In this document: piece after piece, positions 2,535-31,537 of the stretch
How the letters are laid out: each line of letters begins with the position of its first letter
Numbering within the stretch: position 1 is the first letter of the stretch
IMG/VR virus record: IMGVR_UViG_3300010163_003618
DNA from: an uncultured virus (IMG/VR IMGVR_UViG_3300010163_003618)
Lineage: Duplodnaviria; Heunggongvirae; Uroviricota; Caudoviricetes
Strand: one strand, 5' to 3'
Length of the DNA: 64,000 bases
Notes under the pieces: model-generated
What the model saw: only the letters and a program-made list of their open reading frames with translations
The model's database searches: none
Told to the model about the DNA's origin: nothing
Program-made: the position numbers and the translations under genes

Positions 2535-2927
2535 ATGTCAAAATTAAGTGATGAACTTATAGTTTTGAATAAAGATAAAGTTTATAGTAGTTATTACACT
2601 AGAGGTTGTAAGATAGTCCCAGACTGGAGGCTTGTATCAATTTCTATAGGTATACCTGAAAACTTTAAGGGAGAAATTTGTAGAGAACTTAATCCACCTG
2701 ATTTTCTATTAAGGGGATATAAGAATGGTGCAATAGACGAAAAGGAATATGAGGAGATATATCAACAGCAGATACTAAGTAAGCTTGACCCTTTAGAAAT
2801 ATATAATAAGCTTAAGGGTAAAGTAATATTATGTTACTGTGGCAAAGATAAATTTTGCCACAGACATTTAGTATTAAAGTGGTTAGGAGAAAACCTAGGT
2901 AAAGACATAATAGGTGGAGAAATATAA
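2535..2927 (+). CDS. DUF488 family protein
   Basis: SISIGIP, LNPP and C-terminal LCYCGKDKFCHRHLVxxWL motif. Confidence 0.75.
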   Translation: MSKLSDELIVLNKDKVYSSYYTRGCKIVPDWRLVSISIGIPENFKGEICRELNPPDFLLRGYKNGAIDEKEYEEIYQQQILSKLDPLEIYNKLKGKVILCYCGKDKFCHRHLVLKWLGENLGKDIIGGEI

Positions 2928-3093: not shown

Positions 3094-3717
3094 ATGAAAC
3101 TGCATCATCATATTAAAATCGGTAAAATGCTTTTAAACAAATTAGGAGACACATATAAAATAAATAGAAAGGCATATCTATTTGGAACAGTAGCACCAGA
3201 TCTTAATTGCATATACCCAGCACATAGATTAAACTGCACAGAGGATAGATTTCATAAAAGACTAGAAATAATAGACAACACTAACATAAACATAGTAAAG
3301 TCATTCGAATTAGGTGTAATCACTCATTATATTTGTGATTACTTTTGTTATGCTCATAATATCGATTCAATAGGATTAATGCATAAGAGATATGAGAAAA
3401 ACTTATATAGATTCTTCAATAAACATATTAAAGAAATTAAATTTAATGATGAAAAGATAGAATCAATATGGAATAAAAATAAGAGAGTAGTGTCAAACAA
3501 ATTAAAGAACACTAAAGAAAATACAAATATACACTGCGATTTCATACTAGAACAACTAAAATTAATGAATGAAGCATACAATAATGATCTTATACGTTAT
3601 AATAAAAATTGGATATTTAGTATAAATCAAATAGAAAAAGATATGCATTATACTATGGTGGTATTAGGTAACCTGATAGATATGCTACTTGAACCACCAT
3701 TAGCATTAGCTGCATAA
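3094..3717 (+). CDS. Zinc-dependent phospholipase C family protein
   Basis: N-terminal H, GTVAPD, LGVITHYICDYFCYAH and HKRYE zinc-ligand motifs. Confidence 0.8.
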   Translation: MKLHHHIKIGKMLLNKLGDTYKINRKAYLFGTVAPDLNCIYPAHRLNCTEDRFHKRLEIIDNTNINIVKSFELGVITHYICDYFCYAHNIDSIGLMHKRYEKNLYRFFNKHIKEIKFNDEKIESIWNKNKRVVSNKLKNTKENTNIHCDFILEQLKLMNEAYNNDLIRYNKNWIFSINQIEKDMHYTMVVLGNLIDMLLEPPLALAA

Positions 3718-3815
3718 TTAAAATACATAAGAGTGTTGTAAATTAAAAACGCATAATAAAGCATACTTAAGACAAAAGATGTAAGGCATAAAATTAAATT
3801 TTTGGTTTTTAGGGG

Positions 3816-3844
3816 TTGACAAAAGATAATAAGTATGTTATAAT
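3816..3844 (+). promoter_or_regulatory. sigmaA-type promoter (extended -10)
   Basis: TTGACA-17 nt-TATAAT with TG before -10. Confidence 0.85.
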
Positions 3845-3859
3845 AATTATGTTATTAAG

Positions 3860-4036
3860 TACAGGATTGGCACTGAAGTCAGAGTTTAGTGTCTCTTGGA
3901 AACAATACGTAAGGTAAATAAATTTACAGGGTAGACTTCAGGAGGAAGTCATACTGCTTAAGGTGGGTAAGAGGCAGACTACAGGAAAAGTGAACATAAC
4001 GTTTGCGAAAGTGGGGTTCAAATCCTCTTTTCCTGA
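3860..4036 (+). ncRNA. Structured RNA ending in a D-armless tRNA-like module
   Basis: CAGGAAAA(3982)/TTTTCCTG(4035) acceptor-like stem, GGGG-TTCAAAT-CCTC T-arm, upstream hairpins GCACTGAA/TTTAGTGT and GACTTC/GAAGTC; directly after a promoter. Confidence 0.45.
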
Positions 4037-4095
4037 CTAGCACTATGCAAGTGCAAAGATAATTAAAATTAAGGAAATGTAAAGGAAATAAATAA

Positions 4096-4194
4096 ATGAA
4101 GCATGTATTTAATACAACTACATCCACAAATTCAAGTAATTCAAGTTCAAGTACATCGACGAATTTGGATAAACTTAATATGTGTAAAATGTAG
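4096..4194 (+). CDS. Unannotated 32-aa Ser/Thr/Asn-rich peptide MKHVFNTTTSTNSSNSSSSTSTNLDKLNMCKM
   Basis: AAGGA SD 9 nt upstream of ATG; translated by hand. Confidence 0.5.
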   Translation: MKHVFNTTTSTNSSNSSSSTSTNLDKLNMCKM

Positions 4195-4227
4195 TGTGTT
4201 AGATAAAACCAATACAAGACAAAAATC

Positions 4228-4262
4228 AAGTGTCAGTGGATTATCTTCACTGACACTTTTTA
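4228..4262 (+). terminator. Intrinsic terminator
   Basis: AAGTGTCAGTGGA/TTCACTGACACTT stem plus T-tract. Confidence 0.85.
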
Positions 4263-4296
4263 TTTTGTAAATAAATTAGAAAAGGAGAAATGCAAT

Positions 4297-4398
4297 ATGG
4301 ACACAAGCTCAAGTTCAAGTGATTCATCGGACAATAATTCAAACACAAGAACTAATAATTTAAAACAATATAGAGTTTATAAGAAATCATCAAAATAA
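4297..4398 (+). CDS. Unannotated 33-aa Ser/Thr/Asn-rich peptide MDTSSSSSDSSDNNSNTRTNNLKQYRVYKKSSK
   Basis: AAGGAG SD 9 nt upstream of ATG; translated by hand. Confidence 0.5.
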   Translation: MDTSSSSSDSSDNNSNTRTNNLKQYRVYKKSSK

Positions 4399-4474
4399 AG
4401 AGTGGGCAAAAGATGGTTTATTAAAGTGCATCAAAAATTTTTCAAAAATAAATGAAAAATTTTTAAAATAAGTA

Positions 4475-4503
4475 TTGACAAAAGAAGTTTAGGGTATTAT
4501 AAT
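4475..4503 (+). promoter_or_regulatory. sigmaA-type promoter of the tRNA cluster
   Basis: TTGACA-17 nt-TATAAT. Confidence 0.85.
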
Positions 4504-4587
4504 GTGTATATAAGGTTGAGAGAGGAAAAGAAAGTAATAAAAGAAGAAATAGAAAATCAACCTTATAATAAATGTGATAAACATTAT

Positions 4588-4660
4588 TCCTATGTAGCTC
4601 AACAGGTAGAGCACGGAGCTGTTAACTCTGGGGTTAGGCGTTCGAGTCGCCTCGTAGGAG
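4588..4660 (+). tRNA. tRNA-Asn(GTT), no encoded CCA
   Basis: Cloverleaf TCCTATG/CGTAGGA, anticodon loop CTGTTAA, GTTCGAGT T-loop. Confidence 0.95.
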
Positions 4661-4686
4661 TGCAGACTATACATGGTGATAAAGAT

Positions 4687-5102
4687 ATGAAAATAATATT
4701 CTTAGATGTAGATGGGGTATTGAATCAACTTCAGAGATACCATGTAGATGAAAATTGTGTGAGGGAACTTGCAAAAATTTATTCCACGGATACAAGAATA
4801 GTATTAATATCATCATGGAGATTAGGTTTCTCAAGAAACATTAATCAGTGTAGTCCTCAGGTAAAAAATCTAATCACCTGCTTGAATAAGTACAACATGA
4901 ATATAATGTATTGTACAGAAAAATTAGGTGACAGAAGAAAGGAAGTATTAAACTGGTTACAAGGAAAGAATGTTGAATCCTATATAGTACTTGATGATGA
5001 CAAGTCGGAGTATTCATCATTAGAGGAGTTAAATATTTATATAACAAACTCAAAACTGGTTTAACATCAAAAGATATTAAAAACATCAAGAAAATGTTGT
5101 AA
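4687..5102 (+). CDS. HAD-domain protein (Swiss-army-knife RNA-repair type) with apparent -1 frameshift near the C-terminus
   Basis: IIFLDVDGVLN, LISSWR, YIVLDDD motifs; true start 4687; frame stops at 5064 but the expected GLT tail (TGLTSKDIKNIKKML) continues in the -1 frame from AAAA at 5052-5055. Confidence 0.75.
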
Positions 5103-5109
5103 TATACAT

Positions 5110-5182
5110 GCTGGAGTAGCTCAATTGGTAGAGCAAGTGCCTTGTAAGCACTAGGTTGTGGGTTCGAGTCCCACCTTTAGCT
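5110..5182 (+). tRNA. tRNA-Thr(TGT), no encoded CCA
   Basis: GCTGGAG/CTTTAGC acceptor, AGTGC-CTTGTAA-GCACT anticodon arm, GTTCGAGT. Confidence 0.95.
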
Positions 5183-5183
5183 T

Positions 5184-5313
5184 TTGGTAATGCCAAGTGG
5201 CACAGACCAATAGTAGTCAGTGCCTGTAACGACATGCCAAGGCTATGATGACGAAGCCATTAGATGGCAGGCACCAGTCATTAGGGTGGTAACCTTTGTA
5301 TAGGGATATACAA
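5184..5313 (+). ncRNA. Unassigned structured RNA between tRNA-Thr and tRNA-Ser
   Basis: Nested stems TTGGT/ACCAA, TGCC/GGCA, GTGCCTG/CAGGCAC, GGCT/AGCC, TTGTATA-GGGA-TATACAA; GC-richer than flanks; no ORF. Confidence 0.4.
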
Positions 5314-5331
5314 TGAATAACCATTAACATT

Positions 5332-5389
5332 TGTGATTCAGACAGCAATTAAAACAAATCAACTTGAAATTGATAAAAACAGAATCATG
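5332..5389 (+). ncRNA. Armless tRNA-like element carrying a Ser(TGA) anticodon stem-loop
   Basis: TGTGATTC/GAATCATG closing stem, ATCAA-CTTGAAA-TTGAT hairpin, no D or T arm. Confidence 0.45.
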
Positions 5390-5405
5390 TAAAAACAGAA
5401 TCATG
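5374..5405 (+). repeat. 16-bp perfect tandem duplication TAAAAACAGAATCATG x2
   Basis: Read directly from sequence. Confidence 0.9.
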
Positions 5406-5419
5406 TAAAAATATTATAT

Positions 5420-5504
5420 GCTGCATAAGCGAAAGGTTAGCAGGCTCATTGGAAATGAGTTGGTCTAGTTAATAGGCTTGCAGGTTCGAATCCTGTGTGC
5501 AGCG
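5420..5504 (+). tRNA. tRNA-Ser(GGA), atypical D arm
   Basis: GCTGCAT/GTGCAGC acceptor, GCTCA-TTGGAAA-TGAGT, long variable arm, GTTCGAAT; A at position 8 and weak D stem. Confidence 0.75.
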
Positions 5505-5529
5505 TTACCAGTGTAAGGGGAGAATAACC

Positions 5530-5715
5530 ATGAAAGATTGCAAAGGTCAGGAACTCAGTATTGGGGACAGTGTAGTTTATGTAGCAAGAAAACAGTCTGA
5601 TGCAATACTTCAAACTGGTGAAATCACTAAATTTTACAAGGGTAAATTTAATAGAGATGAATGTAGCGTGGGAAAGCAGTCCCATATCAACAGTTCAAGA
5701 ATAATGAAAATTTAA
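5530..5715 (+). CDS. Small phage-type hypothetical protein (MKDCKGQELSIGDSVVY...)
   Basis: GGGGAG SD before ATG 5530; the 5497 start in the track overlaps the tRNA. Confidence 0.7.
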   Translation: MKDCKGQELSIGDSVVYVARKQSDAILQTGEITKFYKGKFNRDECSVGKQSHINSSRIMKI

Positions 5716-5722
5716 AAAATTT

Positions 5723-5810
5723 GCGAGTTTGGCAGAGTTGGATTAATGCACTTGTCTTGAAAACAAGCAGCCCCTGAAAAGGCTCTAGGGTTCGAATCCC
5801 TAAGCTCGCG
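5723..5810 (+). tRNA. tRNA-Ser(TGA)
   Basis: GCGAGTT/AGCTCGC, CTTGT-CTTGAAA-ACAAG, long variable arm, GTTCGAAT, G73. Confidence 0.95.
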
Positions 5811-5812
5811 TT

Positions 5813-6091
5813 ACAGGTTAGTAAGATGTTTATTATTAAAATAGCATCTGAAGAAAGTACCATACTTTGGAAACGAAGTTAAAAGCCTAAAACCCTCTTT
5901 AAAATTTCCAAGATAAGGTTGAATTTACAGAAAAGTGAGTACTGGAGTAGTCATGTACGAAGAAGCGAAAGCCTAGTAAGTAGTTAGTAAACCGACGACA
6001 GTCTGTGAAGGGAGAAGTTGGGCAACGCAATTGGAAAGCGGGACAATGCAGTTACCAGATCAGCAGATGGGTTTCTGAGGGGGTCACCTGT
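5813..6091 (+). ncRNA. ~280-nt unassigned structured RNA (weak RNase P RNA-like hallmarks)
   Basis: Ends pair (ACAGGT/ACCTGT); internal stems AGATGT/GCATCT, TTGGAAA/TTTCCAA, TTTACAGA/TCTGTGAA, GGCAAC/GTTACC; exactly fills the gap between two tRNAs. Confidence 0.55.
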
Positions 6092-6116
6092 CAAAAATTA
6101 ATTGATTATTAATTAT

Positions 6117-6204
6117 GCTTGGGTACTCAAATTGGTGAAGAGGCGCCCCTGCTAAGGGTGTAGGTCAAGAAATTGGCATGTGGGTTCAAGTCCCACTCCA
6201 AGCG
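6117..6204 (+). tRNA. tRNA-Ser(GCT)
   Basis: GCTTGGG/TCCAAGC, CGCCC-CTGCTAA-GGGTG, long variable arm, GTTCAAGT, G73. Confidence 0.95.
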
Positions 6205-6206
6205 TT

Positions 6207-6247
6207 AAAATATGGTGCATAAGTTATGTCTTATGTACCATATTTTA
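6207..6247 (+). terminator. Terminator closing the tRNA cluster
   Basis: AAAATATGGTGCATAAG/CTTATGTACCATATTTT inverted repeat. Confidence 0.75.
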
Positions 6248-6330
6248 TACTTAAAAATATTTAAGAGGATTTTAAAAATTTTATAGAAAAGGATATAAAA
6301 GTAAGACATATCAGCTTTTTAAAAACTACA

Positions 6331-7080
6331 ATGAGAAAAATAAAAGTATTGAATTTATTATTAATAGTAATAGGGTGGGCAACAGTTGGTTTAACACTGT
6401 ATAATATGACCTTACAACATAAAAGTCAAGCAGAATATTTATATAAAAATAAATCATTAGTAAAACAAGTTAAACAATTAGAAAAATTCATAGAAACACC
6501 TTTAGAAGAACAGATAACATTTAGATCATACTCAAGCCTAAAGTCACTTGTAGAGGTAAGTATGTTAGTAGAAATTCCATTAGAAACAAATATCAAGGAC
6601 ATATTATTTATAGGTGATTCAAGGTTTGTAGGTATGGAAGAAGCAAATACAAATGGATATACATTCTTTTGTGAAGTAGGAAAAGGGTACAGCTGGTATA
6701 TAGACAATTTAGATAAAATAGAATCATTAATATCAGACAATACAATCATAATATTTGGTTTAGGAGTAAATGACTTAAGTAATATAGAAAATTATTTAAA
6801 GCTTAAAAATTCAGAGTACTTTGACCAAATATATTATTTGTCAGTCAATCCAGTAGATGAAGTAAAAGAAGCAGAATATGGATATACAGTAACAAACAAT
6901 AGTATAGACAGCTTCAATTCAAGAGTACAAGAAGTATTTAAAGACAGATACATTGATACAAATTCAGTATTAAAAGAAAGTGGGTTTGAAACAAAAGATG
7001 GATTACATTATACAGAAGAAACATACACGGATATTTATGAGTATATAATAAATAATTTACCTCTTATTGACAAAATATAA
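6331..7080 (+). CDS. Membrane-anchored SGNH/GDSL hydrolase
   Basis: N-terminal TM, LFIGDS, GLGVND and DGLHY blocks. Confidence 0.85.
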   Translation: MRKIKVLNLLLIVIGWATVGLTLYNMTLQHKSQAEYLYKNKSLVKQVKQLEKFIETPLEEQITFRSYSSLKSLVEVSMLVEIPLETNIKDILFIGDSRFVGMEEANTNGYTFFCEVGKGYSWYIDNLDKIESLISDNTIIIFGLGVNDLSNIENYLKLKNSEYFDQIYYLSVNPVDEVKEAEYGYTVTNNSIDSFNSRVQEVFKDRYIDTNSVLKESGFETKDGLHYTEETYTDIYEYIINNLPLIDKI

Positions 7081-7117: not shown

Positions 7118-7540
7118 ATGAAAAAGTTATTAGTAATAGCATTGATAGTTGCAACAAGTGTAATGTTTACAGGCTGCGGAGAAGAATATAAGGTAGAACA
7201 GTTAAGAGAAGAAATACAGGCACTGGAAGAACAGAAAGAAAACCTCAATGCTGAAATCACGGAACTTGAATCTTATGATGTTGCATTGAAGGAAGAAACA
7301 GGCACTGCTAAGTATGTATTAACAATAGAGATCAAACAGGTTCACTATTCCCTTAATACTGATAACATCTTAAAAGACAGTATGAATGCAATAACCATTC
7401 AGATACCAGTAGATAAAGAGTATTATGATTCAGTAGAGATAGGAGACAAATTATCTGATAAATTCAGAACAGGCAGCTACATAATTTCTGGTTCATTAGG
7501 CTCTTGGAACATTTCAGTAAAAGACAAAGAAATTCAATAA
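7118..7540 (+). CDS. Lipoprotein with coiled coil
   Basis: Signal peptide with lipobox FTGC followed by heptad region. Confidence 0.7.
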   Translation: MKKLLVIALIVATSVMFTGCGEEYKVEQLREEIQALEEQKENLNAEITELESYDVALKEETGTAKYVLTIEIKQVHYSLNTDNILKDSMNAITIQIPVDKEYYDSVEIGDKLSDKFRTGSYIISGSLGSWNISVKDKEIQ

Positions 7541-7572: not shown

Positions 7573-8406
7573 ATGGCATACAGCAGTAATAAGGAATATC
7601 TCATAGAAGTATTTAAGGATACTGAAAATTGGTATAAGACAGACAAAGAATTGATAGAGCATGTCAATGAAAGTAAAAGACACACAGAAATATACAAAGA
7701 GAAAGATTACCCTGACATTACATATGTAACTTGCAAGGGAAAACCAGCAAAAATAATGGTAACAAAGGGCAGAACATTTGAATCGGCAATAAAGCTTATG
7801 GAAGAATACCCTAATAAAAGGGTATTAGTCCATAATTTTGCATCAGCAACAAACCCTGGTGGTGGAGTATTAAAGGGATCCTCGACGCAGGAAGAAAGTT
7901 TATGCAGATGTTCAACATTATACCCAACGCTTACTACATCAGAATGTAATAATGGTTACTATAAGTATCATAAAAATCTTCACAATATGTTATATACGGA
8001 CACCTGTATATATTCACCAAACATATTAATAATCAAGTCAGACACAATTAAACCTGAAAGATTACCCAAAGATAAGTGGAGAACAGTTGACATAATCACA
8101 TGCCCAGCACCTAATTTAAGGGATGAAGCAGCTAAAACAAGTGATAAGCAATTGTTTGAAATTCATAAAAATAGAGCAAGACATATGATTACCATTGCAA
8201 TAGCACATGGTGTGGATGTACTGGTACTTGGAGCATTTGGTTGCGGTGCATTCAAAAATAAACCAGAAATTGTTGCAAGGGCATATAAGGAAGTAATAAT
8301 GGACTTCAGAAACTTCTTTGATGCTATAGAGTTTGCAGTTTATTGTAAAGCAACTGAAGACGAAAACTATAAAACTTTCAATAGGATCTTGGGAAACATT
8401 AAATAA
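7573..8406 (+). CDS. TIGR02452/DUF2263 bacterial PARG-type macrodomain (ADP-ribose glycohydrolase)
   Basis: NFASATNPGGG, QEESLCRCS, YSP, LVLGAFGCGAFKN motifs. Confidence 0.9.
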   Translation: MAYSSNKEYLIEVFKDTENWYKTDKELIEHVNESKRHTEIYKEKDYPDITYVTCKGKPAKIMVTKGRTFESAIKLMEEYPNKRVLVHNFASATNPGGGVLKGSSTQEESLCRCSTLYPTLTTSECNNGYYKYHKNLHNMLYTDTCIYSPNILIIKSDTIKPERLPKDKWRTVDIITCPAPNLRDEAAKTSDKQLFEIHKNRARHMITIAIAHGVDVLVLGAFGCGAFKNKPEIVARAYKEVIMDFRNFFDAIEFAVYCKATEDENYKTFNRILGNIK

Positions 8407-8431
8407 TCAATAAAAATAGGGGAATAAAAGC

Positions 8432-8902
8432 ATGAGTGAAAAGACTAAACCATTTACAAATGTAGTAATCAGAGAAGAAATCAAAAACAACAAGCAGTCT
8501 GGATACTATGTAACTGTTGATTACATGTATGGTGATGCAGACGGGTATAATGCTGTGGAGTATGGACCTTTCAAGAAAGGCCAGGAAAAATATTTAGCTG
8601 CATTTGCAAATATGCTGGAGGAATGTGTAGAGGCATATCCTAACGGTAGAGGCGGAGATGATAATTATGAAAATGAGGTGCCTGCATTTGCAGTATGGGC
8701 AATGTTGAATGACTATAAGAAATATAACTATACAATTGATGGGGATAAGTTAACTAAGGAAGACATTGGCATAATAGAGAACGTCGGATTTGAAGTTGAA
8801 ACAACACCAGATGGTTGGGGAACACAAGCTACAATCTGCAGTTACAAAGCAATTTATTATGATGCAGACACAAAAAAGAAATTTAATGTAAGTATATCAT
8901 AA
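8432..8902 (+). CDS. Hypothetical protein
   Basis: 156 aa ORF in operon; YMYGDADG motif. Confidence 0.6.
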   Translation: MSEKTKPFTNVVIREEIKNNKQSGYYVTVDYMYGDADGYNAVEYGPFKKGQEKYLAAFANMLEECVEAYPNGRGGDDNYENEVPAFAVWAMLNDYKKYNYTIDGDKLTKEDIGIIENVGFEVETTPDGWGTQATICSYKAIYYDADTKKKFNVSIS

Positions 8903-8921
8903 CAGAAAGAAAGAGAAAACC

Positions 8922-9296
8922 ATGGGTAGTGAGATTAAACAATGGACAGTTTGTACAACAATAGCACATTTTAAGGGTAGCAAAACATTACCAAAATGTA
9001 ACTTCTTTATAAATGTGGAAGGCACAGAAGATGAATTAAAAGCACTTCTAATGCGCATGGTAGAAATTAACAAAAAGAGTGTGGCAGAATATTATCCTGA
9101 AGACACATGGATGGATGGTACAGCTGACATAAGTCATGTGCAAATGAGATATGGTGGACAATTATATTGTGCATTTTCAATGCATAAGGACACCTTAATA
9201 AGCTATACAGCTGTAACACATATGAACTTCCATAAAATCAGTGAACTCATGGAAAGTAATGATAAGTTACACGCAGCAACCTTGATGGATGGTTAA
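8922..9296 (+). CDS. Hypothetical protein
   Basis: 124 aa ORF in operon. Confidence 0.6.
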   Translation: MGSEIKQWTVCTTIAHFKGSKTLPKCNFFINVEGTEDELKALLMRMVEINKKSVAEYYPEDTWMDGTADISHVQMRYGGQLYCAFSMHKDTLISYTAVTHMNFHKISELMESNDKLHAATLMDG

Positions 9297-9310
9297 GATA
9301 GGAGGAAAAA

Positions 9311-9850
9311 ATGAAAAGAGCATTGGTAGTAATTGATATGCAAAATGGTTTCATAAACGAGAATACAGCACATTTGTCTAAGAAGCTTATTGAGTTTATG
9401 AGCATGACACAGTTTGATAAAACAATTTTTACTAGATTCATTAACAGACCTGAAACGGCATGCTATAAATTTGAAGGTTACCATGATTGTATGGAAGGAT
9501 CAAGTGAAGCTGAAATTATACCAGAATTGAAATACATGGGGGATGTTGTGTTTGACAAGGATAAATTCAGCTGCTGGTACGGAAGATTTAAGGAGTATAT
9601 TAAGATTAATAAATTTGATAAGCTGTACTTTGTAGGAGTAAACACTGGATGTTGTGTATTAAACAGTGTGCTGGATGCTTATAATGACTTACAGGATTGT
9701 GCAGTCATAAGTGACTTATGTGGATCATCTAACGGAAATCATTCACACCAGATTGCATTGGAAGTTCTTGCAGAGAATATTACTAAGAGCAGGGTATTAA
9801 CATTTGATGAAGCAGTAAAAGAAATCATGGGTGACTGCAAAGGAGAATAA
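9311..9850 (+). CDS. Isochorismatase/cysteine hydrolase family protein
   Basis: LVVIDMQNGF, catalytic K (DKDKFS), GVNTGCCV. Confidence 0.85.
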   Translation: MKRALVVIDMQNGFINENTAHLSKKLIEFMSMTQFDKTIFTRFINRPETACYKFEGYHDCMEGSSEAEIIPELKYMGDVVFDKDKFSCWYGRFKEYIKINKFDKLYFVGVNTGCCVLNSVLDAYNDLQDCAVISDLCGSSNGNHSHQIALEVLAENITKSRVLTFDEAVKEIMGDCKGE

Positions 9851-9855
9851 AAACA

Positions 9856-10356
9856 ATGGAGTATTTTATATCAGACTTCCATATAGGTGATGCAAACATT
9901 TTAACTTATGAGCATAGACCATTCAATTCATTGCATAGCATGAAAGAAACAATTATAACAAATATACAAAAAACAGTAACTCCATGTGATACTTTGTATA
10001 TACTTGGTGACTTAGGAAATACATCAATATTGGATGAAATACCAGGCAAGATAATCGTTGTTTGTGGCAATCATGATAACTATGAAGAAATCAAGAATAC
10101 ACATCCAGATATTTATGTATCCAAGTATCCCATTATGATTGATAACATGTGGTTATCACATGCACCTATAGGATATGTTCCACCTGAATGTCCATACATT
10201 AACATTCATGGTCACTTACATAGGTTTCAATACGGTTTAATTGGAAGAAATTGGGAAGAAGGCAATAGATACTTCAATGTATCAGTAGAAAATATTAACT
10301 ATACACCTATTTCTAAAGATGAGATCATAGAGAAAATAAAATATAAGAAGGTATAA
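9856..10356 (+). CDS. Calcineurin-like metallophosphoesterase
   Basis: SDFH, LGD, GNHD, LSHAP, NIHGHLH motifs. Confidence 0.9.
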   Translation: MEYFISDFHIGDANILTYEHRPFNSLHSMKETIITNIQKTVTPCDTLYILGDLGNTSILDEIPGKIIVVCGNHDNYEEIKNTHPDIYVSKYPIMIDNMWLSHAPIGYVPPECPYINIHGHLHRFQYGLIGRNWEEGNRYFNVSVENINYTPISKDEIIEKIKYKKV

Positions 10357-10358
10357 TA

Positions 10359-11204
10359 ATGTATAACATGACTGAAATGAATGGAAAATTACAAATACTG
10401 GTGGATGACACTGAATTAAACCTAGATAAGACATTTGATTGTGGTCAGGCATTCAGATGGGTAAAACAACCATCAGGAGAGTGGGTAGGAGTTGTAAACG
10501 GCAAGATTTGGGTACTAGAACAAAATAATAATGTAATTCATACAAATTTGGATAAAAACTCAGAGAAAGAGTTAGTTAATTATTTAAATTTAGATATGGA
10601 TTATACAAATAAAATAAACAGTTTATCTCTAACAAAATTTGAACTAAATGCCTACAATGTGGCAATGGGCATTCACATATTAAGACAAGATCTGTTTGAA
10701 ACAATGGTGACATTTTTAATGTCTTCCTGTAACACAATGAGAAATATAAGAAGCATTGTAAATAAACTATGTGAAGCATATGGAGAAGATATTACAACAG
10801 AGCATAACAAAAAAGAAATAAAACAGAAGTCATTTCCAACATTGGAAAGACTAGCAACAGTCAGTGCAAATGAATTTAGAACATTTAGCATGGGATTCAG
10901 AGCAGACTATTTGTACAGCATGTGCCAAAGATTAATCAACAATAGATCCCTGCTAGATAAAATAATACAATGCAATTACAAAGACTCATTAAGAATATTG
11001 AAGGAGTTTACAGGAGTAGGCAGTAAAGTAGCTGAATGTATAGAACTATTTTCACTTCATCACATTGAAGCATTTCCAATTGACACTCATATCAAGGCAA
11101 TAATCAATAAAGAATATGATGGTGCAATTGATTTAAGTAGATTTAAAGATGTAGCAGGAGTAATACAACAGTATTTATTTTACTATAAAGCATTCAATAA
11201 ATAG
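10359..11204 (+). CDS. 8-oxoguanine DNA glycosylase (OGG1-type, HhH-GPD)
   Basis: TFDCGQAFRW N-domain, GFRA, GVGSKVAECI HhH, FPIDTH, AGVIQQYLF. Confidence 0.9.
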   Translation: MYNMTEMNGKLQILVDDTELNLDKTFDCGQAFRWVKQPSGEWVGVVNGKIWVLEQNNNVIHTNLDKNSEKELVNYLNLDMDYTNKINSLSLTKFELNAYNVAMGIHILRQDLFETMVTFLMSSCNTMRNIRSIVNKLCEAYGEDITTEHNKKEIKQKSFPTLERLATVSANEFRTFSMGFRADYLYSMCQRLINNRSLLDKIIQCNYKDSLRILKEFTGVGSKVAECIELFSLHHIEAFPIDTHIKAIINKEYDGAIDLSRFKDVAGVIQQYLFYYKAFNK

Positions 11205-13409: not shown

Positions 13410-13438
13410 TTGACAAAATATTTTAAATGTGATATGAT
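13410..13438 (+). promoter_or_regulatory. sigmaA-type promoter for the initiator tRNA
   Basis: TTGACA-17 nt-TATGAT with TG extension. Confidence 0.8.
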
Positions 13439-13470
13439 ATAAGAGTGTTAGGGAAAGGGTTGAGAAATAA

Positions 13471-13544
13471 CGCGGGGTGGAGCAGTCTGGAAGCTCATCG
13501 GGCTCATAACCCGAAGGTCACAGGTTCAAATCCTGTCCCCGCTA
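13471..13544 (+). tRNA. Initiator tRNA-fMet(CAT)
   Basis: C1:T72 mismatch, A11:T24, three G:C pairs in the anticodon stem (TCGGG-CTCATAA-CCCGA). Confidence 0.95.
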
Positions 13545-27263: not shown

Positions 27264-27429
27264 AAAAAGTATTAATAACCAATCTTAACTATAAACACAA
27301 CAATTTAACAACATAGAAAAATATAAAAACTCTTCATTAATAGCTTTTAAGTGATAAGTAAGAAATTTATTTTTAAACTTAAGGGTAATGGAGAGTTTTT
27401 ATTATTGCATTGGATTGGAGGATATTTAC

Positions 27430-30400
27430 ATGGAAATTTATATGGTAGGTGTTCATAAAAAAGGTAAAGATATAATAGGTTTTAGAATGTTATCATTAGA
27501 AAAGGATAATAAAACGGAAATAAAAGATGTAGCATACACCATTGTGTTAAATACATTACAAGCTGGTCTTGCTAAAATACATAATATTAAGCTTGAAAAC
27601 AATAGAATCAAAGGATCAAACGGTTCACTTGATAGATATGGCATTGTAAATAAGTCACAGTCGCTTGTAATCTTAAAGGAATTACATGATGATAGAGACA
27701 AGTTTATAGGATATTTATGTTCAGATTCTTTAGGAAATACTAAAAGACTTACTGAATCTGAAGCGGTAACATTTGCAGAAAAATTAGGTATAGCTAATGG
27801 AAAAGTTATGCGCACTAATAATTCTGAAAAGCATATATCAAGTATAGAAGGTACTTATGAAACACAGATAGTAAGGCAATCAGTGCTGCAGCAACAGCCT
27901 AAACAACCAGTACAACCACAGCAGCAACCATTAGCACAGCCTCAAGCAAACACCACTAACACATCAAATGCAGAGAAGGATTATTTTAGGGATGCTATGT
28001 TCCTAATATCCCAAATAAATAGTAATCCTGAACGTAAAAAAGCATTTGATAAAAGTTTTGCTAAAAAAATAGAGATATCAATAAAAAGGTATAATAAATG
28101 TTCAAAGAAGCAGTATGATGTAATAGAAAAAGAGTACAATACATTGTTTAACATACAGCAGCCAGTACAGCAAACAGTACAGCAGCCAGAAAAATCAGTT
28201 GCTAAAACAGAACAACCTGTAAAAGAATCAACTAAACAACCTGAATCACCAACAATACAACGGAGATCTTATCAACCCATAGTAATAGCTAAGCCAAACA
28301 CAGATATGGATGAAGTATTAAAATATCAAATAATGAAGAATGGCCAAGTATATGTATGTGGTTTAAATGAGAACAATACAGAAACAACATTAATTATTCC
28401 AGAAACAACTGTATTGAACGGGAAGCAATACAAAATCACAGGCATAAACGTAGGAGCATTTGTAGGTTCAAAAATAAAAGAAGTAAAAACTTCTAAATAT
28501 ATTGAGGACATAGGGCAAGGAGCATTTAAAAGTTGTAAATGGCTTCAAATAGTTGATTTATCTGAATCTAAGCATACACACTTAGCTATGAATTTGTTTA
28601 ATGGATGCAAGAGTTTAAAACAGATCAACATAGGTAATCAAGTACAACGTATACACGAAGCAGCATTCTTTGAGTGTAGTTCACTAGAGTACATTGAATT
28701 GCCTGATTCAACAGATACAATAGCAAGAAATGCATTCTTTGATTGTAATAAACTTGTAGAAATAAAGCATAAAGTAAAAAATATTCATGACTCAGCATTT
28801 AGACACTGTATAAAACTTGAAAACTTTGACTTTCATTCAGTAATAAGCATAGGTGCATATGCATTCAGAGAAACAGGTTTTAAGCATCTGGTTATACCTG
28901 GTAATGTTACCAGTATAGGTACTAAAGCATTTGCAGATTGTTTGGTGCTTGAAACAGTTGAATTACAAGAAGGAGTACAGGAGATAGGTGAGTATTGTTT
29001 CGCTAAATCATCCTATTCTGATGTAATAAGACAGTTAAGAGTGACAGATGTACCTTATACAAGAATAAAAGAAATAACTACTGCAAAATCAATAATTTCA
29101 GTATTGAATGATGCATTCAGACATGTAGAATTAGTTAAGGTATATACAGGATCAACTTGTGAATCACATTGTATAGGGTTTAACATTCCATACGAAAGAA
29201 TTGATGATATAAATTCTGATAACTCAACAAGAGTTAGAATAACATCATCAATTATTGATGTAAATCCTATAGAGACATTATATAAAGCTTTATCAACACC
29301 AGTAGAAAATGCAAGTAACCCTGAATTCGTGATGAATGAATCTAAATTAGTGAATATACCATTCAATGACCAACAGTTACAATTTTTCCATATAGGCAGA
29401 ACAACAGAACAAAAAGAGCCACATATAAAATTTAAAGCAATTGTAAACTACTTGCAAGATGTGAGCAATTTATACCAATTACCTTTATCTAATACAATAC
29501 TAAGATTGCAAGACACATTCTATGTTGAAGCAATTGAATTACTTAATGACAATTGTAATAGATTATATAAAGTAAACTACAGATTGATGGACACCCTAGA
29601 AGAGGGTAGCTATATCATGGTATTAACAGATAATAACTTAAGATATGTAACAGAATGTAATTTATTAACAGACATAGAAATTGAGAACACTTTTGCTACT
29701 AATGATGCACTACCAGTAAAGAAATTTTTACATGCAGGTGATACCATAGGAAAACAAGGGACAATAAGTGGTCAGAGTAGCATAATCAGAATAGAAGACA
29801 GCTATAAAAGAATAAATGTAGGGGAGATGCTGTTAGAAAGACTTAAAAATCACGGTATAACATTTAAGACAACAAAGAAAGATAGTATATTATACTTGCC
29901 AGTATGTGGTTTAGCATTGAATTTACATGATGGACGTATATGGGATAGACCAGGGGTAATAAGTAAGAATACCAAGGATTGTATTAACTTAATCAATATA
30001 CTAAATTATGATGAAATGAAAAATACGCTTAAGAATACTAAGAAAAATGCTTATAATGCTACAAGACTGTTTGATGACCTAGCAAAAATGAGTGATAGGG
30101 CGGTGAAAGTAAGAATTTCTAATCTGGCTACAATAGAAGATGAAAAAGAGGCACAGCTATTCCAAGTTAGTAAACATTTCAGGGATATAATAGACAAGGC
30201 AAGATTAAATGAAGTTAGTATAACTCCAAATCTAATAACACCTGAAATATTTATGGAACTCTCTAGATCATATTGGATGGTCAGCAAAGATGAACAGTGG
30301 CTAAGTAGTACTGGTAATAAGGCATTGAATAAGATGAATGAATACTCTATAGGTAAGTATAAACTCATAGAGTATAAAAGTAATCAGATAGTTAAATTTA

Positions 30401-31416
30401 ACAATCCATACATGAACGGACAAAAAGGTGCATTTGTATTTACATTAATGCAAGGTGGAAACATAATAGGAGTTTATGCGAGTAGATATAGTATAGATAT
30501 TATAGTTAAGAAGCTTTATGCATTAACTGATATGTCTAAGGTTCCTGAAGATGAAGCAATACCAGTATTAATGCAATCAGCAGAAAATATTGATAAAGTC
30601 AATCCAAATCTATTCTATACATTCTATGATGTGTTACAGTCAAAGAATGGCTGGAACTTCAACACAATGTATAGCAATTATAACTACAGTGCAAGCTTCC
30701 ATATTTCAATGTATAAGCCTACTGGAATTTTCTACTTAACACTGAATAGAGTAACTATATCAGAGAGAAAAGTGGAAGGAAATAAAGAAAAATTCATGAT
30801 GGCATATAAGGTTATGCCACTGTTACCCATAGGAAATATGGATAGGGCATTAATGGTAGCTACAACTACCAATACAAATGCTAAAGACTCCAAGTTATTA
30901 GAGGAATTAATGGCAATAATGAGTATGGAAGAGATAAGGGATAACAGAATGGTGCTTGGTCATAAAGTATCAAAAATAAAATATGAAAAGATAAGAGATA
31001 ATTATATACAAGCAAGACAGCTAGTAATAAATGGTGATAAAGATATAAGCAAGTATAAAGCCTTAATAGATGATAGAGCAGTTTATATGTTAGGAACACT
31101 TCATAAAGGGAAATTGCAACGTGAGAAAGATGTAATAGACAATACAAATATAGTAGATGATATAGATCTAGATGAATCATTTGATATAGAAGAAAATGAC
31201 ACCGATGAAATTGAAGATATCAATATAAATGATGAAGATTACTTAGAGGAAATTGAACTTGACGAAGATGAATTAGACATAGAAGAAGATAGTGATAATG
31301 CAATCATATCTGAAAAAGAATTTATAGAAATAGCTAAGTCACAAGGAGTTACAGATATCAATACCATTAAAGCAATGTATCTAAAATACAGCATAAGTCA
31401 ACAATCAAACAATTAA
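27430..31416 (+). CDS. Large modular protein: two DUF3892-like repeats, Q/P linker, BspA-type leucine-rich repeats, unknown C-domain, acidic tail
   Basis: IGxxAFxxCxxLxxIxLP repeats (e.g. IGQGAFKSCKWL, IGTKAFADCLVL); GGAGG SD before 27430. Confidence 0.8.
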   Translation: MEIYMVGVHKKGKDIIGFRMLSLEKDNKTEIKDVAYTIVLNTLQAGLAKIHNIKLENNRIKGSNGSLDRYGIVNKSQSLVILKELHDDRDKFIGYLCSDSLGNTKRLTESEAVTFAEKLGIANGKVMRTNNSEKHISSIEGTYETQIVRQSVLQQQPKQPVQPQQQPLAQPQANTTNTSNAEKDYFRDAMFLISQINSNPERKKAFDKSFAKKIEISIKRYNKCSKKQYDVIEKEYNTLFNIQQPVQQTVQQPEKSVAKTEQPVKESTKQPESPTIQRRSYQPIVIAKPNTDMDEVLKYQIMKNGQVYVCGLNENNTETTLIIPETTVLNGKQYKITGINVGAFVGSKIKEVKTSKYIEDIGQGAFKSCKWLQIVDLSESKHTHLAMNLFNGCKSLKQINIGNQVQRIHEAAFFECSSLEYIELPDSTDTIARNAFFDCNKLVEIKHKVKNIHDSAFRHCIKLENFDFHSVISIGAYAFRETGFKHLVIPGNVTSIGTKAFADCLVLETVELQEGVQEIGEYCFAKSSYSDVIRQLRVTDVPYTRIKEITTAKSIISVLNDAFRHVELVKVYTGSTCESHCIGFNIPYERIDDINSDNSTRVRITSSIIDVNPIETLYKALSTPVENASNPEFVMNESKLVNIPFNDQQLQFFHIGRTTEQKEPHIKFKAIVNYLQDVSNLYQLPLSNTILRLQDTFYVEAIELLNDNCNRLYKVNYRLMDTLEEGSYIMVLTDNNLRYVTECNLLTDIEIENTFATNDALPVKKFLHAGDTIGKQGTISGQSSIIRIEDSYKRINVGEMLLERLKNHGITFKTTKKDSILYLPVCGLALNLHDGRIWDRPGVISKNTKDCINLINILNYDEMKNTLKNTKKNAYNATRLFDDLAKMSDRAVKVRISNLATIEDEKEAQLFQVSKHFRDIIDKARLNEVSITPNLITPEIFMELSRSYWMVSKDEQWLSSTGNKALNKMNEYSIGKYKLIEYKSNQIVKFNNPYMNGQKGAFVFTLMQGGNIIGVYASRYSIDIIVKKLYALTDMSKVPEDEAIPVLMQSAENIDKVNPNLFYTFYDVLQSKNGWNFNTMYSNYNYSASFHISMYKPTGIFYLTLNRVTISERKVEGNKEKFMMAYKVMPLLPIGNMDRALMVATTTNTNAKDSKLLEELMAIMSMEEIRDNRMVLGHKVSKIKYEKIRDNYIQARQLVINGDKDISKYKALIDDRAVYMLGTLHKGKLQREKDVIDNTNIVDDIDLDESFDIEENDTDEIEDININDEDYLEEIELDEDELDIEEDSDNAIISEKEFIEIAKSQGVTDINTIKAMYLKYSISQQSNN

Positions 31417-31460: not shown

Positions 31461-31537
31461 TTGTTTGTCTAAATATTTATCATATAAAACATTAGGGGTT
31501 GTCTTTATTTTTAAATATTAATTTTGGAGGATACATA

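What the first reader, a model, noticed from the sequence alone, without database searches (positions are those of the whole stretch)
4096..6204. Two Ser/Thr/Asn-rich mini-ORFs sit directly upstream of a tRNA cluster made only of Asn, Thr and Ser tRNAs
Seen: ORF 4096-4194 has 18 consecutive N/T/S codons (N6-N23), and ORF 4297-4398 has N/T/S at 16 of 19 positions (T3-N21). Both have well-spaced SD sites, and a strong terminator (4228-4262) lies between them. The downstream tRNAs are exactly Asn(GTT), Thr(TGT), Ser(GGA), Ser(TGA) and Ser(GCT), which together can read the AAY, ACN, TCN and AGY codons used. Known: attenuator leader peptides sense charged tRNA through runs of cognate codons, and phage tRNAs offset host tRNA-cleaving defences. 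Inference: a translation-coupled sensor of tRNA depletion that tunes the element's own tRNA supply. Alternatively these are Ser/Thr-rich precursor or decoy peptides. Caveat: a separate promoter at 4475 can transcribe the tRNAs independently.
Basis: partly seen in the sequence, partly recalled or inferred. Interest (0 to 1): 0.8.

Follow-up and report, generated by a model that had tools for sequence, protein, structure and literature searches.

The report
Codon-matched leader ORFs before phage tRNAs
In this large gut-type phage and its relatives, each block of tRNA genes is preceded by a tiny gene written almost only in the codons that block decodes, followed by a transcription stop signal, which most likely lets tRNA production follow how well those codons are being read.

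Summary
In relatives the two mini-ORFs keep their frame, length and composition. In other tRNA operons of the same phage family the leader composition changes with the tRNA set. I found 14 leader ORFs before 13 tRNA operons, covering five amino-acid sets: Asn/Thr/Ser, Cys/Gln/Arg/Met, Asp/His/Ile/Phe/Glu, Trp/Tyr and Leu/Ile/Ala/Pro/Trp/Arg. Each is followed by a strong hairpin, with a U-run in 13 of 14, and then a consensus promoter and the tRNAs. Several matches hold at codon level. A bacterial Leu/Tyr/Ser tRNA operon has the same leader, with the terminator abutting the first tRNA and no promoter between. The best reading is a ribosome-mediated, attenuator-like sensor of the operon's own tRNAs. 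Two things weaken it. No antiterminator scores better than shuffled sequence, and the phage operons also have their own promoter. Seven literature searches found no description. Peptide-product, RiPP and chance readings are rejected.

The parts
3816..3844 (+). Promoter P1, a 12 of 12 match to the sigma-70 consensus with 17-nt spacing. It starts the leader transcript.
   Evidence: An equivalent consensus promoter is present in relatives.
3925..4042 (+). Conserved RNA between P1 and mini-ORF 1. It has two nearly invariant 5' hairpins followed by a tRNA-like acceptor stem and T arm. Its anticodon arm is not conserved, and in the window it is missing. Function unknown; possibly a processing signal.
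   Evidence: Five versions were aligned and folded. The acceptor-like stem has 7 pairs with compensatory change at 4. The T arm has 5 pairs with compensatory change at 2. ARAGORN calls it a tRNA in 1 of 5 versions (L027). No Rfam match covers it in the window at E up to 10.
4096..4194 (+). Mini-ORF 1, the leader ORF of 32 codons. Codons 6-23 (4111-4164) are all Asn, Thr or Ser.
   Evidence: 17 of the 18 run codons are readable by the cluster's anticodons under strict wobble, and 18 of 18 if U34 reads all four. The ORF is conserved in four relatives with a run of 17-18 of 18.
4106..4204 (+). Long imperfect hairpin spanning mini-ORF 1. The start region and first half of the run pair with the ORF tail and the bases after the stop codon.
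   Evidence: MFE fold. Energy z = -4.1 against dinucleotide shuffles. The consensus over 5 relatives has 26 pairs, 7 with compensatory change.
4228..4268 (+). Intrinsic terminator T1: a 13-pair stem with a 5-nt loop and a T-run.
   Evidence: The terminator consensus over 5 relatives has 14 pairs, 3 with compensatory change.
4297..4398 (+). Mini-ORF 2 (33 codons). It begins Met-Asp-Thr and then mixes Asn/Thr/Ser codons with Asp. It has no obvious promoter of its own, so it would be read mainly on transcripts that pass T1.
   Evidence: An equivalent ORF 2 (Met, an acidic residue, then cognate codons mixed with Asp or Glu) occurs in 5 of 5 Asn/Thr/Ser modules, 2 of 2 Trp/Tyr, 2 of 2 Asp/His/Ile/Phe/Glu and the Leu/Ile/Ala/Pro module. 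None was seen in the one Cys/Gln/Arg/Met module read for it (G001).
4412..4474 (+). A/T-rich block upstream of P2, conserved at DNA level. It looks like an UP element.
   Evidence: Alignment with L019. The same block is seen in L027, L051 and the other operons of G001.
4475..4503 (+). Promoter P2, a 12 of 12 match to the consensus, directly before the tRNA operon.
   Evidence: A 12 of 12 match was scored in 8 phage operons and an 11 of 12 match in L058. In the other 4 (L019, L027, L052; the L061-type variant apart) the promoter was read by eye.
4587..6205 (+). tRNA operon: Asn(gtt) 4587-4661, Thr(tgt) 5110-5182, Ser(gga) 5419-5505, Ser(tga) 5722-5811, Ser(gct) 6116-6205. Interspersed are a HAD_SAK_2 protein (4687-5064) and a 61-aa ORF (5530-5715).

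Best explanation
The two mini-ORFs are cis-acting leader ORFs of the tRNA operon, not genes for useful peptides. Transcription from P1 (or, in some modules, from upstream genes) passes a short ORF whose central ~18 codons are drawn almost only from the codons decoded by the tRNAs immediately downstream. It then meets a strong intrinsic terminator. When those tRNAs are plentiful, the ribosome runs to the stop codon, the ORF-spanning hairpin closes and T1 stops the transcript. When any of them is scarce, the ribosome stalls inside the run and the 3' half of the hairpin stays single-stranded. More polymerases then pass T1, cross mini-ORF 2 and add to P2-driven transcription of the tRNA genes. This would be an on-demand boost on top of a basal supply, one sensor per operon. 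Shown: the anatomy, its conservation, and the amino-acid and codon-level co-variation with the tRNA set. Inferred: stalling, the sign of the response and read-through. Unresolved: how a stalled ribosome would defeat the terminator.
For: (1) Co-variation. In contig G001 (268 kb) four operons each have their own leader. These are an 18-codon run of only Gln/Met/Cys/Arg before Cys,Cys,Gln,Arg,Arg,Met,Arg,Gln tRNAs; two tandem Phe/Glu/Asp/Ile/His leaders before Asp,His,Asp,Ile,Phe,Glu,Glu; a Tyr/Trp-rich leader before Trp,Tyr,Tyr; and the Asn/Thr/Ser leader. Phage-like contigs of G002 repeat these and add a Leu/Ile/Ala/Pro/Trp/Arg leader. Best 18-codon windows score 18,18,18,17,17 (Asn/Thr/Ser), 18,18,16 (Cys/Gln/Arg/Met), 16,16,12 (Asp/His/Ile/Phe/Glu), 9,9 (Trp/Tyr) and 16 (Leu/Ile/Ala/Pro/Trp/Arg). 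(2) Specificity. In the leader-by-set matrix 14 of 16 leaders score highest on their own set; the two Trp/Tyr leaders do not. In a six-frame scan of 168,529 bases the top windows for three sets are the leaders or ORF 2 only. (3) Codon level. The cluster that keeps only Arg(cct) has a single Arg codon, and it is AGG, while its sisters with Arg(tct) and Arg(acg) use AGA, CGA and CGC. Ile is ATA where tRNA-Ile(tat) is in the cluster and ATT where it is Ile(gat). (4) A hairpin follows every leader, with a U-run in 13 of 14. (5) The ORF-spanning hairpin has z = -3.8 to -6.1 in 6 of 7 modules, with compensatory changes. (6) Bacterial chromosomal operons (Leu,Leu,Tyr,Ser,Ser in G002:C257; Tyr,Leu x4,Ser x2 in G018:C175) have Leu/Tyr/Ser leaders. 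Their terminator abuts the first tRNA, so read-through is the only route from that promoter. (7) In three unrelated phage tRNA regions, 0 of 157, 185 and 149 small ORFs passed the same test, which gave 2 and 4 hits in the window and L030.
Against: No antiterminator is supported. The best pairing between the region after the run and the terminator's 5' arm is no better than dinucleotide shuffles in any of 7 modules (z -1.1 to +0.5). All 13 phage operons have a consensus promoter after the terminator, so read-through could at most add to constitutive transcription. Mini-ORF 2 has no explained role. One module (L058) has the hairpin but no U-run. The Trp/Tyr leaders are only 9 of 18 cognate, and a Tyr,Tyr,Arg cluster (L061) has only a weak leader (6 of 12). 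One codon-level prediction fails: the L052 leader uses TCC and TCT, although no Ser(gga) gene is on that complete 5.2-kb contig. Solitary tRNAs and several small groups have no leader. The leader before L055 does not pass the stricter control test. Homologous modules in related phages are not independent, so the independent support is six set types, not 16 leaders. No expression data exist.
Confidence: 0.6

Rival explanations
1. The leader is a real decoding sensor, but its output is not read-through of T1 into the tRNA genes. The short P1 transcript (tRNA-like RNA, leader and terminator) could act in trans as a small RNA. Alternatively, a stalled ribosome could change its processing or stability, or the thing controlled could be mini-ORF 2.
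For: No antiterminator scores better than shuffles. A strong promoter sits after the terminator in every phage module. The transcript would end in a stable hairpin with a U-tail, like many small RNAs. A conserved tRNA-like element lies on the same transcript in the Asn/Thr/Ser modules. Attenuator-derived RNAs and leader peptides acting in trans are reported for Sinorhizobium (PMC6614838, PMC7298713; only the search listing and the start of the abstract were seen).
Against: In the bacterial operons the terminator directly abuts the first tRNA with no promoter between, which only makes sense if read-through matters. Mini-ORF 2 has no conserved peptide beyond its first residues. No target for a trans-acting RNA was identified.
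Confidence: 0.2
2. The terminator is mainly an insulator that stops upstream transcription before a self-sufficient tRNA operon. The leader ORF works with the opposite sign or as a passive element. For example, efficient translation could keep the RNA open, or could protect the transcript until the terminator.
For: In two G001 modules (Trp/Tyr and Cys/Gln/Arg/Met) no 12 of 12 promoter lies between the preceding gene and the leader, so there T1 also ends the upstream transcription unit. P2 is a perfect consensus promoter.
Against: An insulator needs no ORF, no Shine-Dalgarno site and no codon run matched to the downstream tRNAs. Nor would it need to track loss of tRNA genes at codon level. The stop codon lies 21-51 nt before the terminator. 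That is too far for a terminating ribosome to touch the hairpin.
Confidence: 0.1
3. The mini-ORFs encode functional peptides: RiPP precursors, decoys, or anti-defence or signalling peptides rich in Ser/Thr/Asn.
For: Both ORFs have ribosome-binding sites and are conserved as ORFs. Several mini-ORF 1 versions carry one Cys near the C-terminus.
Against: Composition and length are conserved, but residue order is not. Sister modules carry chemically unrelated runs that track the tRNA set. The tail residues are explained by RNA pairing with the run. No peptide-modifying enzyme was found among 29 neighbouring proteins scanned with Pfam and PHROGs. There is no signal peptide or hydrophobic segment.
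Confidence: 0.04
4. The runs are chance low-complexity sequence of an A+T-rich genome.
For: The window is 25-40% G+C. Asn, Ser and Thr have A/T-rich codons.
Against: The longest run in 200 simulations was 10, against 18 observed. The Gln/Met/Cys/Arg run, which includes CGA and CGC codons, cannot come from A+T bias. Lys, Ile, Leu and Phe, the commonest A/T-rich codons, are absent from the Asn/Thr/Ser run. Position and frame are conserved in five diverged versions.
Confidence: 0.01

Closest known systems
Classical ribosome-mediated leader-peptide attenuators of amino-acid operons (trpL, hisL, thrL, leuL, pheL, the multivalent ilv leaders). Recalled; for pheL and for the theory of attenuation only the search listings of PMC3082878 and PMC1183508 were seen.
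   Same: A short ORF with a ribosome-binding site, a run of regulatory codons, a hairpin that includes the run, and an intrinsic terminator before the regulated genes. Tandem leaders and multi-amino-acid runs also occur.
   Different: The regulated genes are the tRNAs that read the run, not biosynthetic enzymes, so the signal and the product are the same molecule. The runs mix 2-6 amino acids chosen by operon content and sample individual isoacceptors. No antiterminator scores better than shuffled sequence. In the phage a second consensus promoter and a second mini-ORF follow the terminator.
pheM leader of the pheST operon (recalled)
   Same: A component of the translation apparatus controlled by a leader peptide rich in its own cognate codons.
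   Different: That leader controls a synthetase and senses one amino acid. Here tRNA genes are controlled and several amino acids are sensed at once.
T-box riboswitches of Firmicutes (recalled)
   Same: They sense tRNA status and act through an intrinsic terminator, and they occur in low-G+C Gram-positive hosts.
   Different: T-boxes bind uncharged tRNA directly and need no ORF. No T-box match was found in 3700-6400 at E up to 10, nor in the bacterial leaders at E up to 1.
Attenuator-derived trans-acting RNA and peptide (rnTrpL and peTrpL of Sinorhizobium; PMC6614838, PMC7298713; listing and start of abstract only)
   Same: A terminated leader transcript that could have a life of its own.
   Different: No trans target is known here. 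The composition tracks the downstream genes in cis.
Leader-ORF attenuators before phage tRNA arrays, noted earlier in this scan (e1-6024449, e1-5406488, e1-5961540, e1-5896972, e1-5844010, e1-5824790). These are unchecked AI notes on other genomes.
   Same: The same idea: a mini-gene plus a transcription stop in front of phage tRNA genes, in some cases spelled in the codons those tRNAs read.
   Different: These are other phages with no sequence similarity to this window. They are reported with switchable terminators, which I could not support here. The present family gives one leader per operon with near-pure codon sets, and it has a bacterial counterpart.

Membership tests
Leader-peptide (ribosome-mediated) transcription attenuator | Short ORF with a ribosome-binding site upstream of the regulated genes | tested here: met
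   Found in all 14 phage leaders and 3 bacterial leaders.
Leader-peptide (ribosome-mediated) transcription attenuator | Run of codons cognate to what the operon supplies | tested here: met
   Own-set scores are 12-18 of 18 for 12 leaders and 9 of 18 for the 2 Trp/Tyr leaders. 14 of 16 leaders score highest on their own set. Background scan.
Leader-peptide (ribosome-mediated) transcription attenuator | Intrinsic terminator between the leader ORF and the regulated genes | tested here: met
   A hairpin plus U-run follows 13 of 14 phage leaders. L058 has the hairpin without the U-run. In bacteria the terminator abuts the first tRNA.
Leader-peptide (ribosome-mediated) transcription attenuator | Mutually exclusive antiterminator that forms when the ribosome stalls | tested here: inconclusive
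   The duplex of the post-run region with the terminator's 5' arm gives z -1.1 to +0.5 against 500 shuffles in 7 of 7 modules. Weak alternative pairings exist, but shuffled sequence does as well. The same test on the bacterial leaders was not completed.
Leader-peptide (ribosome-mediated) transcription attenuator | Read-through responds to the supply of charged cognate tRNA | not testable with these tools
   No sequencing run was listed for this stretch. Reporter or in vitro assays are needed.
T-box riboswitch | Match to the T-box model (stem I specifier, T-box sequence) | tested here: not met
   No T-box hit at E up to 10 in 3700-6400, nor at E up to 1 in the bacterial loci.
RiPP precursor peptide | Conserved core or leader sequence with modifying enzymes encoded nearby | tested here: not met
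   Residue order is not conserved. No modifying enzyme was found among 29 neighbouring proteins.
tRNA (for the element at 3925-4042) | Full cloverleaf with an anticodon arm | tested here: not met
   ARAGORN calls it a tRNA in 1 of 5 versions. There is no Rfam tRNA hit on it in the window. The anticodon-arm region is not alignable, and it is missing in the window. Only the acceptor-like stem and the T arm are conserved.

The most novel reading that the evidence does not exclude
A modular, re-programmable 'codon-demand sensor' that controls stable-RNA genes. Each tRNA operon of these jumbo phages, and one class-II tRNA operon of Lachnospiraceae-type bacteria, would be autoregulated by how fast ribosomes read a test track of its own codons. 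The mechanism would differ from the classical four-region attenuator, because no antiterminator is detectable. Candidates are a switch in which the ribosome-binding region competes for the spacer, or a factor that reads the exposed 3' half of the leader hairpin. In the phage this would act as a per-codon-family alarm that raises tRNA supply when host tRNAs are scarce or are cleaved by defence nucleases.
Probability: 0.3. Interest if true: 0.95.

Novelty: new variant of a known kind. Interest (0 to 1): 0.85.

Why it matters
Bacterial tRNA genes are generally thought to be controlled at promoters (growth rate, stringent response) and by processing. I know of no described case in which a tRNA operon is controlled by translation of its own codons. 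Seven full-text searches found none. If the reading is right, tRNA supply can be set by direct feedback from decoding performance, operon by operon and even isoacceptor by isoacceptor. It would also explain how large phages decide how much of their own tRNA to make in hosts with a different tRNA pool or with anticodon-nuclease defences. The cassettes are small and modular, and the run is simply re-spelled for each operon. They are therefore easy to test with reporters and could serve as sensors of codon-specific translation capacity. The bacterial counterpart suggests the logic is not confined to phages.

Tried and rejected
**Rfam.** At gathering threshold on the whole window, and at E up to 10 on 3700-6400, only tRNAs and sub-threshold noise were found. 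Nothing matched the bacterial leaders.

**Cultured-phage database.** blastn of 3700-6500 and of 3846-4480, and tblastn of the neighbouring phospholipase-C-like protein, gave no relatives beyond tRNA matches.

**Looking for relatives.**
- The search for related loci with the HAD protein gave 18 loci with no tRNAs, so they were not useful.
- With the phospholipase-C-like protein 1 of 2 loci was useful.
- Pattern scans gave 1 real hit of 5, 2 of 3 (one a near-duplicate, L028, dropped from the counts), 3 of 19 (all in G001) and 1 of 1.

**Antiterminator search.** The classical antiterminator test found no support.

**Own genome and sequencing runs.** No genome is held for this window. No sequencing run, RNA or DNA, was listed.

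**Bacterial leader.**
- DNA searches for it in 301 and 401 family genomes found only G018 and G302. These searches score only two candidates per genome, so this says little about prevalence.
- 11 other bacterial tRNA operons with upstream sequence had no cognate leader.

**tRNAs without a leader.** Solitary tRNAs and small groups in the phage contigs have none.

**Inter-tRNA spacers.** Spacers 5183-5325 and 5812-6115 are not significantly structured (z -1.65 and -0.78).

**Technical failures.** One script timed out. The duplex test on the bacterial leaders was not completed.

**Readings considered and rejected.** These were tmRNA or permuted tmRNA, a T-box, and a Y-RNA-like role for the tRNA-like element (no model hit), RiPP precursors, and chance low complexity.
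Full report
**Context.** The window is A+T-rich (25-40% G+C) and nearly all long ORFs lie on the + strand. Its proteins are typical of a large phage. They include SF1/SF2 helicases, a Dam-type methyltransferase, a phosphoesterase, a HAD domain of the RNA-repair 'Swiss Army Knife' type, a microbial PARG domain, an isochorismatase-family protein and an OGG-type glycosylase. No whole genome is held for the window. No cultured phage in the database is related.

**Observation.**
- Mini-ORF 1 (4096-4194) has 18 consecutive Asn/Thr/Ser codons at 4111-4164.
- Mini-ORF 2 (4297-4398) has 16 of 19.
- A 13-pair terminator with a T-run lies between them at 4228-4258.
- Promoters matching the consensus 12 of 12 lie at 3816-3844 and 4475-4503.
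- The five tRNAs downstream are Asn(gtt), Thr(tgt), Ser(gga), Ser(tga) and Ser(gct).
- The next longest Asn/Thr/Ser run in six frames of the window is 8, and 200 Markov simulations never exceeded 10.

**Relatives of the module.** I used the neighbouring phospholipase-C-like protein and short patterns from a conserved RNA upstream of mini-ORF 1. These gave four diverged versions of the whole module:
- L019 = G001, a 268-kb IMG/VR contig whose neighbouring protein is 49% identical;
- L027, a 140-kb metagenome contig;
- L051/L052 and L054, two contigs binned in a Lachnospiraceae MAG, G002.

L028 is a near-duplicate of G001 and is not counted. The order of parts is the same in all five: consensus promoter, conserved tRNA-like RNA, mini-ORF 1, terminator, mini-ORF 2, A/T-rich block, consensus promoter, then Asn, Thr and Ser tRNAs only. 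Mini-ORF 1 is 29-33 codons long, and its best 18-codon window is 18, 18, 18, 17 and 17 cognate. The order of the three residues differs between versions. Mini-ORF 2 keeps its start (Met, Asp) and a mix of cognate codons with Asp, but nothing else. So composition and length are conserved, not a peptide sequence.

**The decisive test: do other operons have other leaders?** G001 has 27 tRNA hits in several clusters.
- Before Cys,Cys,Gln,Arg,Arg,Met,Arg,Gln lies a 41-codon ORF with an 18-codon run made only of Gln, Met, Cys and Arg. A terminator and a consensus promoter follow (L030 8996-9348).
- Before Asp,His,Asp,Ile,Phe,Glu,Glu lie a consensus promoter and two tandem leaders rich in Phe/Glu/Asp/Ile/His, each with its own terminator. 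An ORF 2 and two consensus promoters follow (L030 5212-6092).
- Before Trp,Tyr,Tyr lies a Tyr/Trp-rich leader, a terminator, an ORF 2 and a consensus promoter (L030 1598-2017).

G002 holds at least two related phages. They repeat these modules (L057, L058, L059, L063) and add a fifth set. That set is a leader rich in Leu, Ile, Ala, Pro, Trp and Arg before a Leu/Pro/Ala/Ile/Met/Gly/Trp/Arg tRNA block (L055).

In all I count 14 leaders before 13 operons. In the leader-by-set matrix 14 of 16 leaders, including the bacterial ones below, score highest on their own set. The two Trp/Tyr leaders, whose set has only two members, do not. In a six-frame scan of 168,529 bases the top windows for the Asn/Thr/Ser, Cys/Gln/Arg/Met and Asp/His/Ile/Phe/Glu sets are leaders or ORF 2 only. 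For Trp/Tyr the margin is small (9 against 8). For the Leu-rich set the scan does not discriminate.

**Codon level.**
- The Cys/Gln/Arg/Met runs use both Gln codons (tRNAs ctg and ttg), AGA (tct) and CGA/CGC (acg). The last two are unusual choices in so A+T-rich a genome.
- The sister cluster L058 retains only Arg(cct). It has a single Arg codon, and that codon is AGG.
- Ile is ATT in the leaders of clusters with Ile(gat), and ATA (four times) in the leader of the cluster with Ile(tat).
- The window has Ser(gga) and one TCC codon. G001 and L027 lack that tRNA and have no TCY codon.
- Against this, the L052 leader has TCC and TCT without a Ser(gga) gene on its complete 5.2-kb contig.

**Misses.** I found no cognate leader before the following:
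- the window's solitary tRNA-Met, which has its own promoter;
- G001's solitary tRNAs;
- 12 further tRNAs or small groups in G002 contigs, where the best score was 7 of 12.

A Tyr,Tyr,Arg cluster (L061) has only a weak Tyr/Arg-enriched leader, scoring 6 of 12. L058 has the hairpin but no U-run and an 11 of 12 promoter.

**A bacterial counterpart.** Contig C257 of G002 is chromosomal, carrying flagellin, FliS, LytR and a DinB-type polymerase at about 38-42% G+C. On it a 42-codon ORF has a 16-codon run of Leu, Tyr and Ser using all six Leu codons. A terminator follows, and its T-run runs straight into a Leu,Leu,Tyr,Ser,Ser tRNA operon. The promoter scan shows no strong promoter in between. Homologous leaders precede Tyr/Leu/Ser operons in two other genomes of the same family. 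The G018 leader scores 14 of 18. The G302 leader is degenerate. Eleven other tRNA operons of those two genomes have no such leader. Where the terminator abuts the first tRNA, expression from that promoter requires read-through. This is the strongest structural argument that these cassettes are attenuators.

**RNA structure.** Each leader ORF lies inside a long imperfect hairpin. The ribosome-binding and start region, plus the first half of the run, pairs with the ORF tail and the bases just after the stop codon.
- The energy z-score is -3.8 to -6.1 in 6 of 7 modules, and -0.6 in the seventh.
- The five Asn/Thr/Ser leaders share a consensus of 26 pairs, 7 with compensatory change. Their terminator has 14 pairs, 3 with compensatory change.
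- This pairing explains the conserved tail of mini-ORF 1.

This is the arrangement expected for regions 1:2 and 3:4 of an attenuator. The third element is missing, however. The best duplex between the post-run region and the terminator's 5' arm is no better than 500 dinucleotide shuffles in any of 7 modules (z -1.1 to +0.5). The weak alternative pairings seen in stalled-ribosome simulations are not consistent between modules. I could not complete the same test on the bacterial leaders. How a stalled ribosome would suppress termination is therefore open.

**The tRNA-like RNA.** All five Asn/Thr/Ser modules carry a conserved RNA between P1 and mini-ORF 1, but the other modules do not. It has two nearly invariant hairpins followed by an acceptor-like stem and a T arm with compensatory changes. 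The anticodon-arm region is not conserved and is absent in the window. ARAGORN calls it a tRNA in only one version, and Rfam has no match. It may be a processing signal or a decayed tRNA. I have no evidence for its function. Other tRNA remnants lie near sister modules (read).

**Interpretation.** Co-variation over six set types, codon-level tracking, conserved ribosome-binding sites and terminators, and the bacterial arrangement all point one way. A cis-acting decoding sensor of the operon's own tRNAs is by far the best reading. I put 0.6 on the specific mechanism of stall-dependent read-through adding P1 transcripts to basal P2 transcription. The phage design of a gated upstream promoter plus a constitutive downstream one would give a basal supply with an on-demand boost. 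The rivals are these:
- the same sensor with another output, such as a trans-acting leader RNA, processing, or mini-ORF 2 (0.2);
- an insulator, or a response of the opposite sign (0.1);
- functional peptides (0.04);
- chance (0.01).

The link to host tRNA-cleaving defences is plausible, given the RNA-repair-type HAD gene inside the cluster, but it is untested.

**Generality and novelty.** Three unrelated phage tRNA regions were put through the same test: Lactobacillus phage LfeInf, Phass-1 and Vibrio phage 2.275.O. They gave 0 hits among 157, 185 and 149 small ORFs. The window gave 2 hits and L030 gave 4. The feature is therefore not universal.

Seven full-text searches returned no paper describing leader ORFs with cognate codons before tRNA genes. 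I saw only listings and the starts of abstracts, and subscription journals are not covered.

Earlier unchecked notes of this scan report leader-ORF attenuators before tRNA arrays in other, unrelated phages. They agree with this reading but are not independent evidence, and I did not test them.

I classify the finding as a new variant of a known kind. It is leader-peptide attenuation logic applied to tRNA genes, with an unresolved and possibly different switching mechanism.

Noticed in passing
L060 2265-2470 (= G002:C257 about 7265-7470); L082 minus strand 1587-1880; L081 minus strand: Chromosomal Leu/Tyr/Ser (class II) tRNA operons of three Lachnospiraceae-family genomes carry a Leu/Tyr/Ser-run leader ORF and a terminator that abuts the first tRNA. 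Eleven other tRNA operons in two of these genomes have none.
   Followed up: partly
window 3925-4042; L019 5297-5440; L027 2885-3026 (-); L052 1315-1446; L054 641-775: Conserved RNA with two nearly invariant hairpins plus a tRNA-like acceptor stem and T arm, lacking a conserved anticodon arm. It has no Rfam match. It is present only in the Asn/Thr/Ser modules.
   Followed up: partly
window 4687-5064: A HAD domain of the 'Swiss Army Knife' RNA-repair type (PF18143, E 6e-17) is encoded between tRNA-Asn and tRNA-Thr. In L027 a 349-aa ORF occupies the same position; it was not scanned against any family library.
   Followed up: no
window 2535-2927 and 7573-11204: A run of accessory genes next to the tRNA operon: a DUF488-N3a protein, a microbial PARG domain, an isochorismatase-family protein, a metallophosphoesterase and an OGG-type DNA glycosylase. 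It looks like an NAD/ADP-ribose and repair island.
   Followed up: no
window 13410-13544: A solitary tRNA-Met(cat) with its own near-consensus promoter (11 of 12) and no leader ORF.
   Followed up: yes
L030 9225-9262; L061 about 2440-2500: Fragments resembling tRNA T arms or truncated tRNAs lie between the terminator and the promoter, or between the promoter and the first tRNA, of sister modules. This suggests decay and turnover of tRNA genes around the cassettes.
   Followed up: no
L058 3470-3592 (-): The leader of this Cys/Gln/Arg/Met module is followed by a strong hairpin without a U-run and by an 11 of 12 promoter. Its cluster has lost two of the three Arg tRNAs. It may be a decaying or re-tuned module.
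   Followed up: partly
window 5183-5325 and 5812-6115: Spacers between the tRNAs are richer in G+C, but their folding energies are not significant (z -1.65 and -0.78).
   Followed up: yes
window 27388-31416 and 31499-32878: A 1342-aa protein with BspA-type leucine-rich repeats, followed by a DUF1002 protein. These are unusual cargo for a phage and fit a gut Firmicutes host.
   Followed up: no
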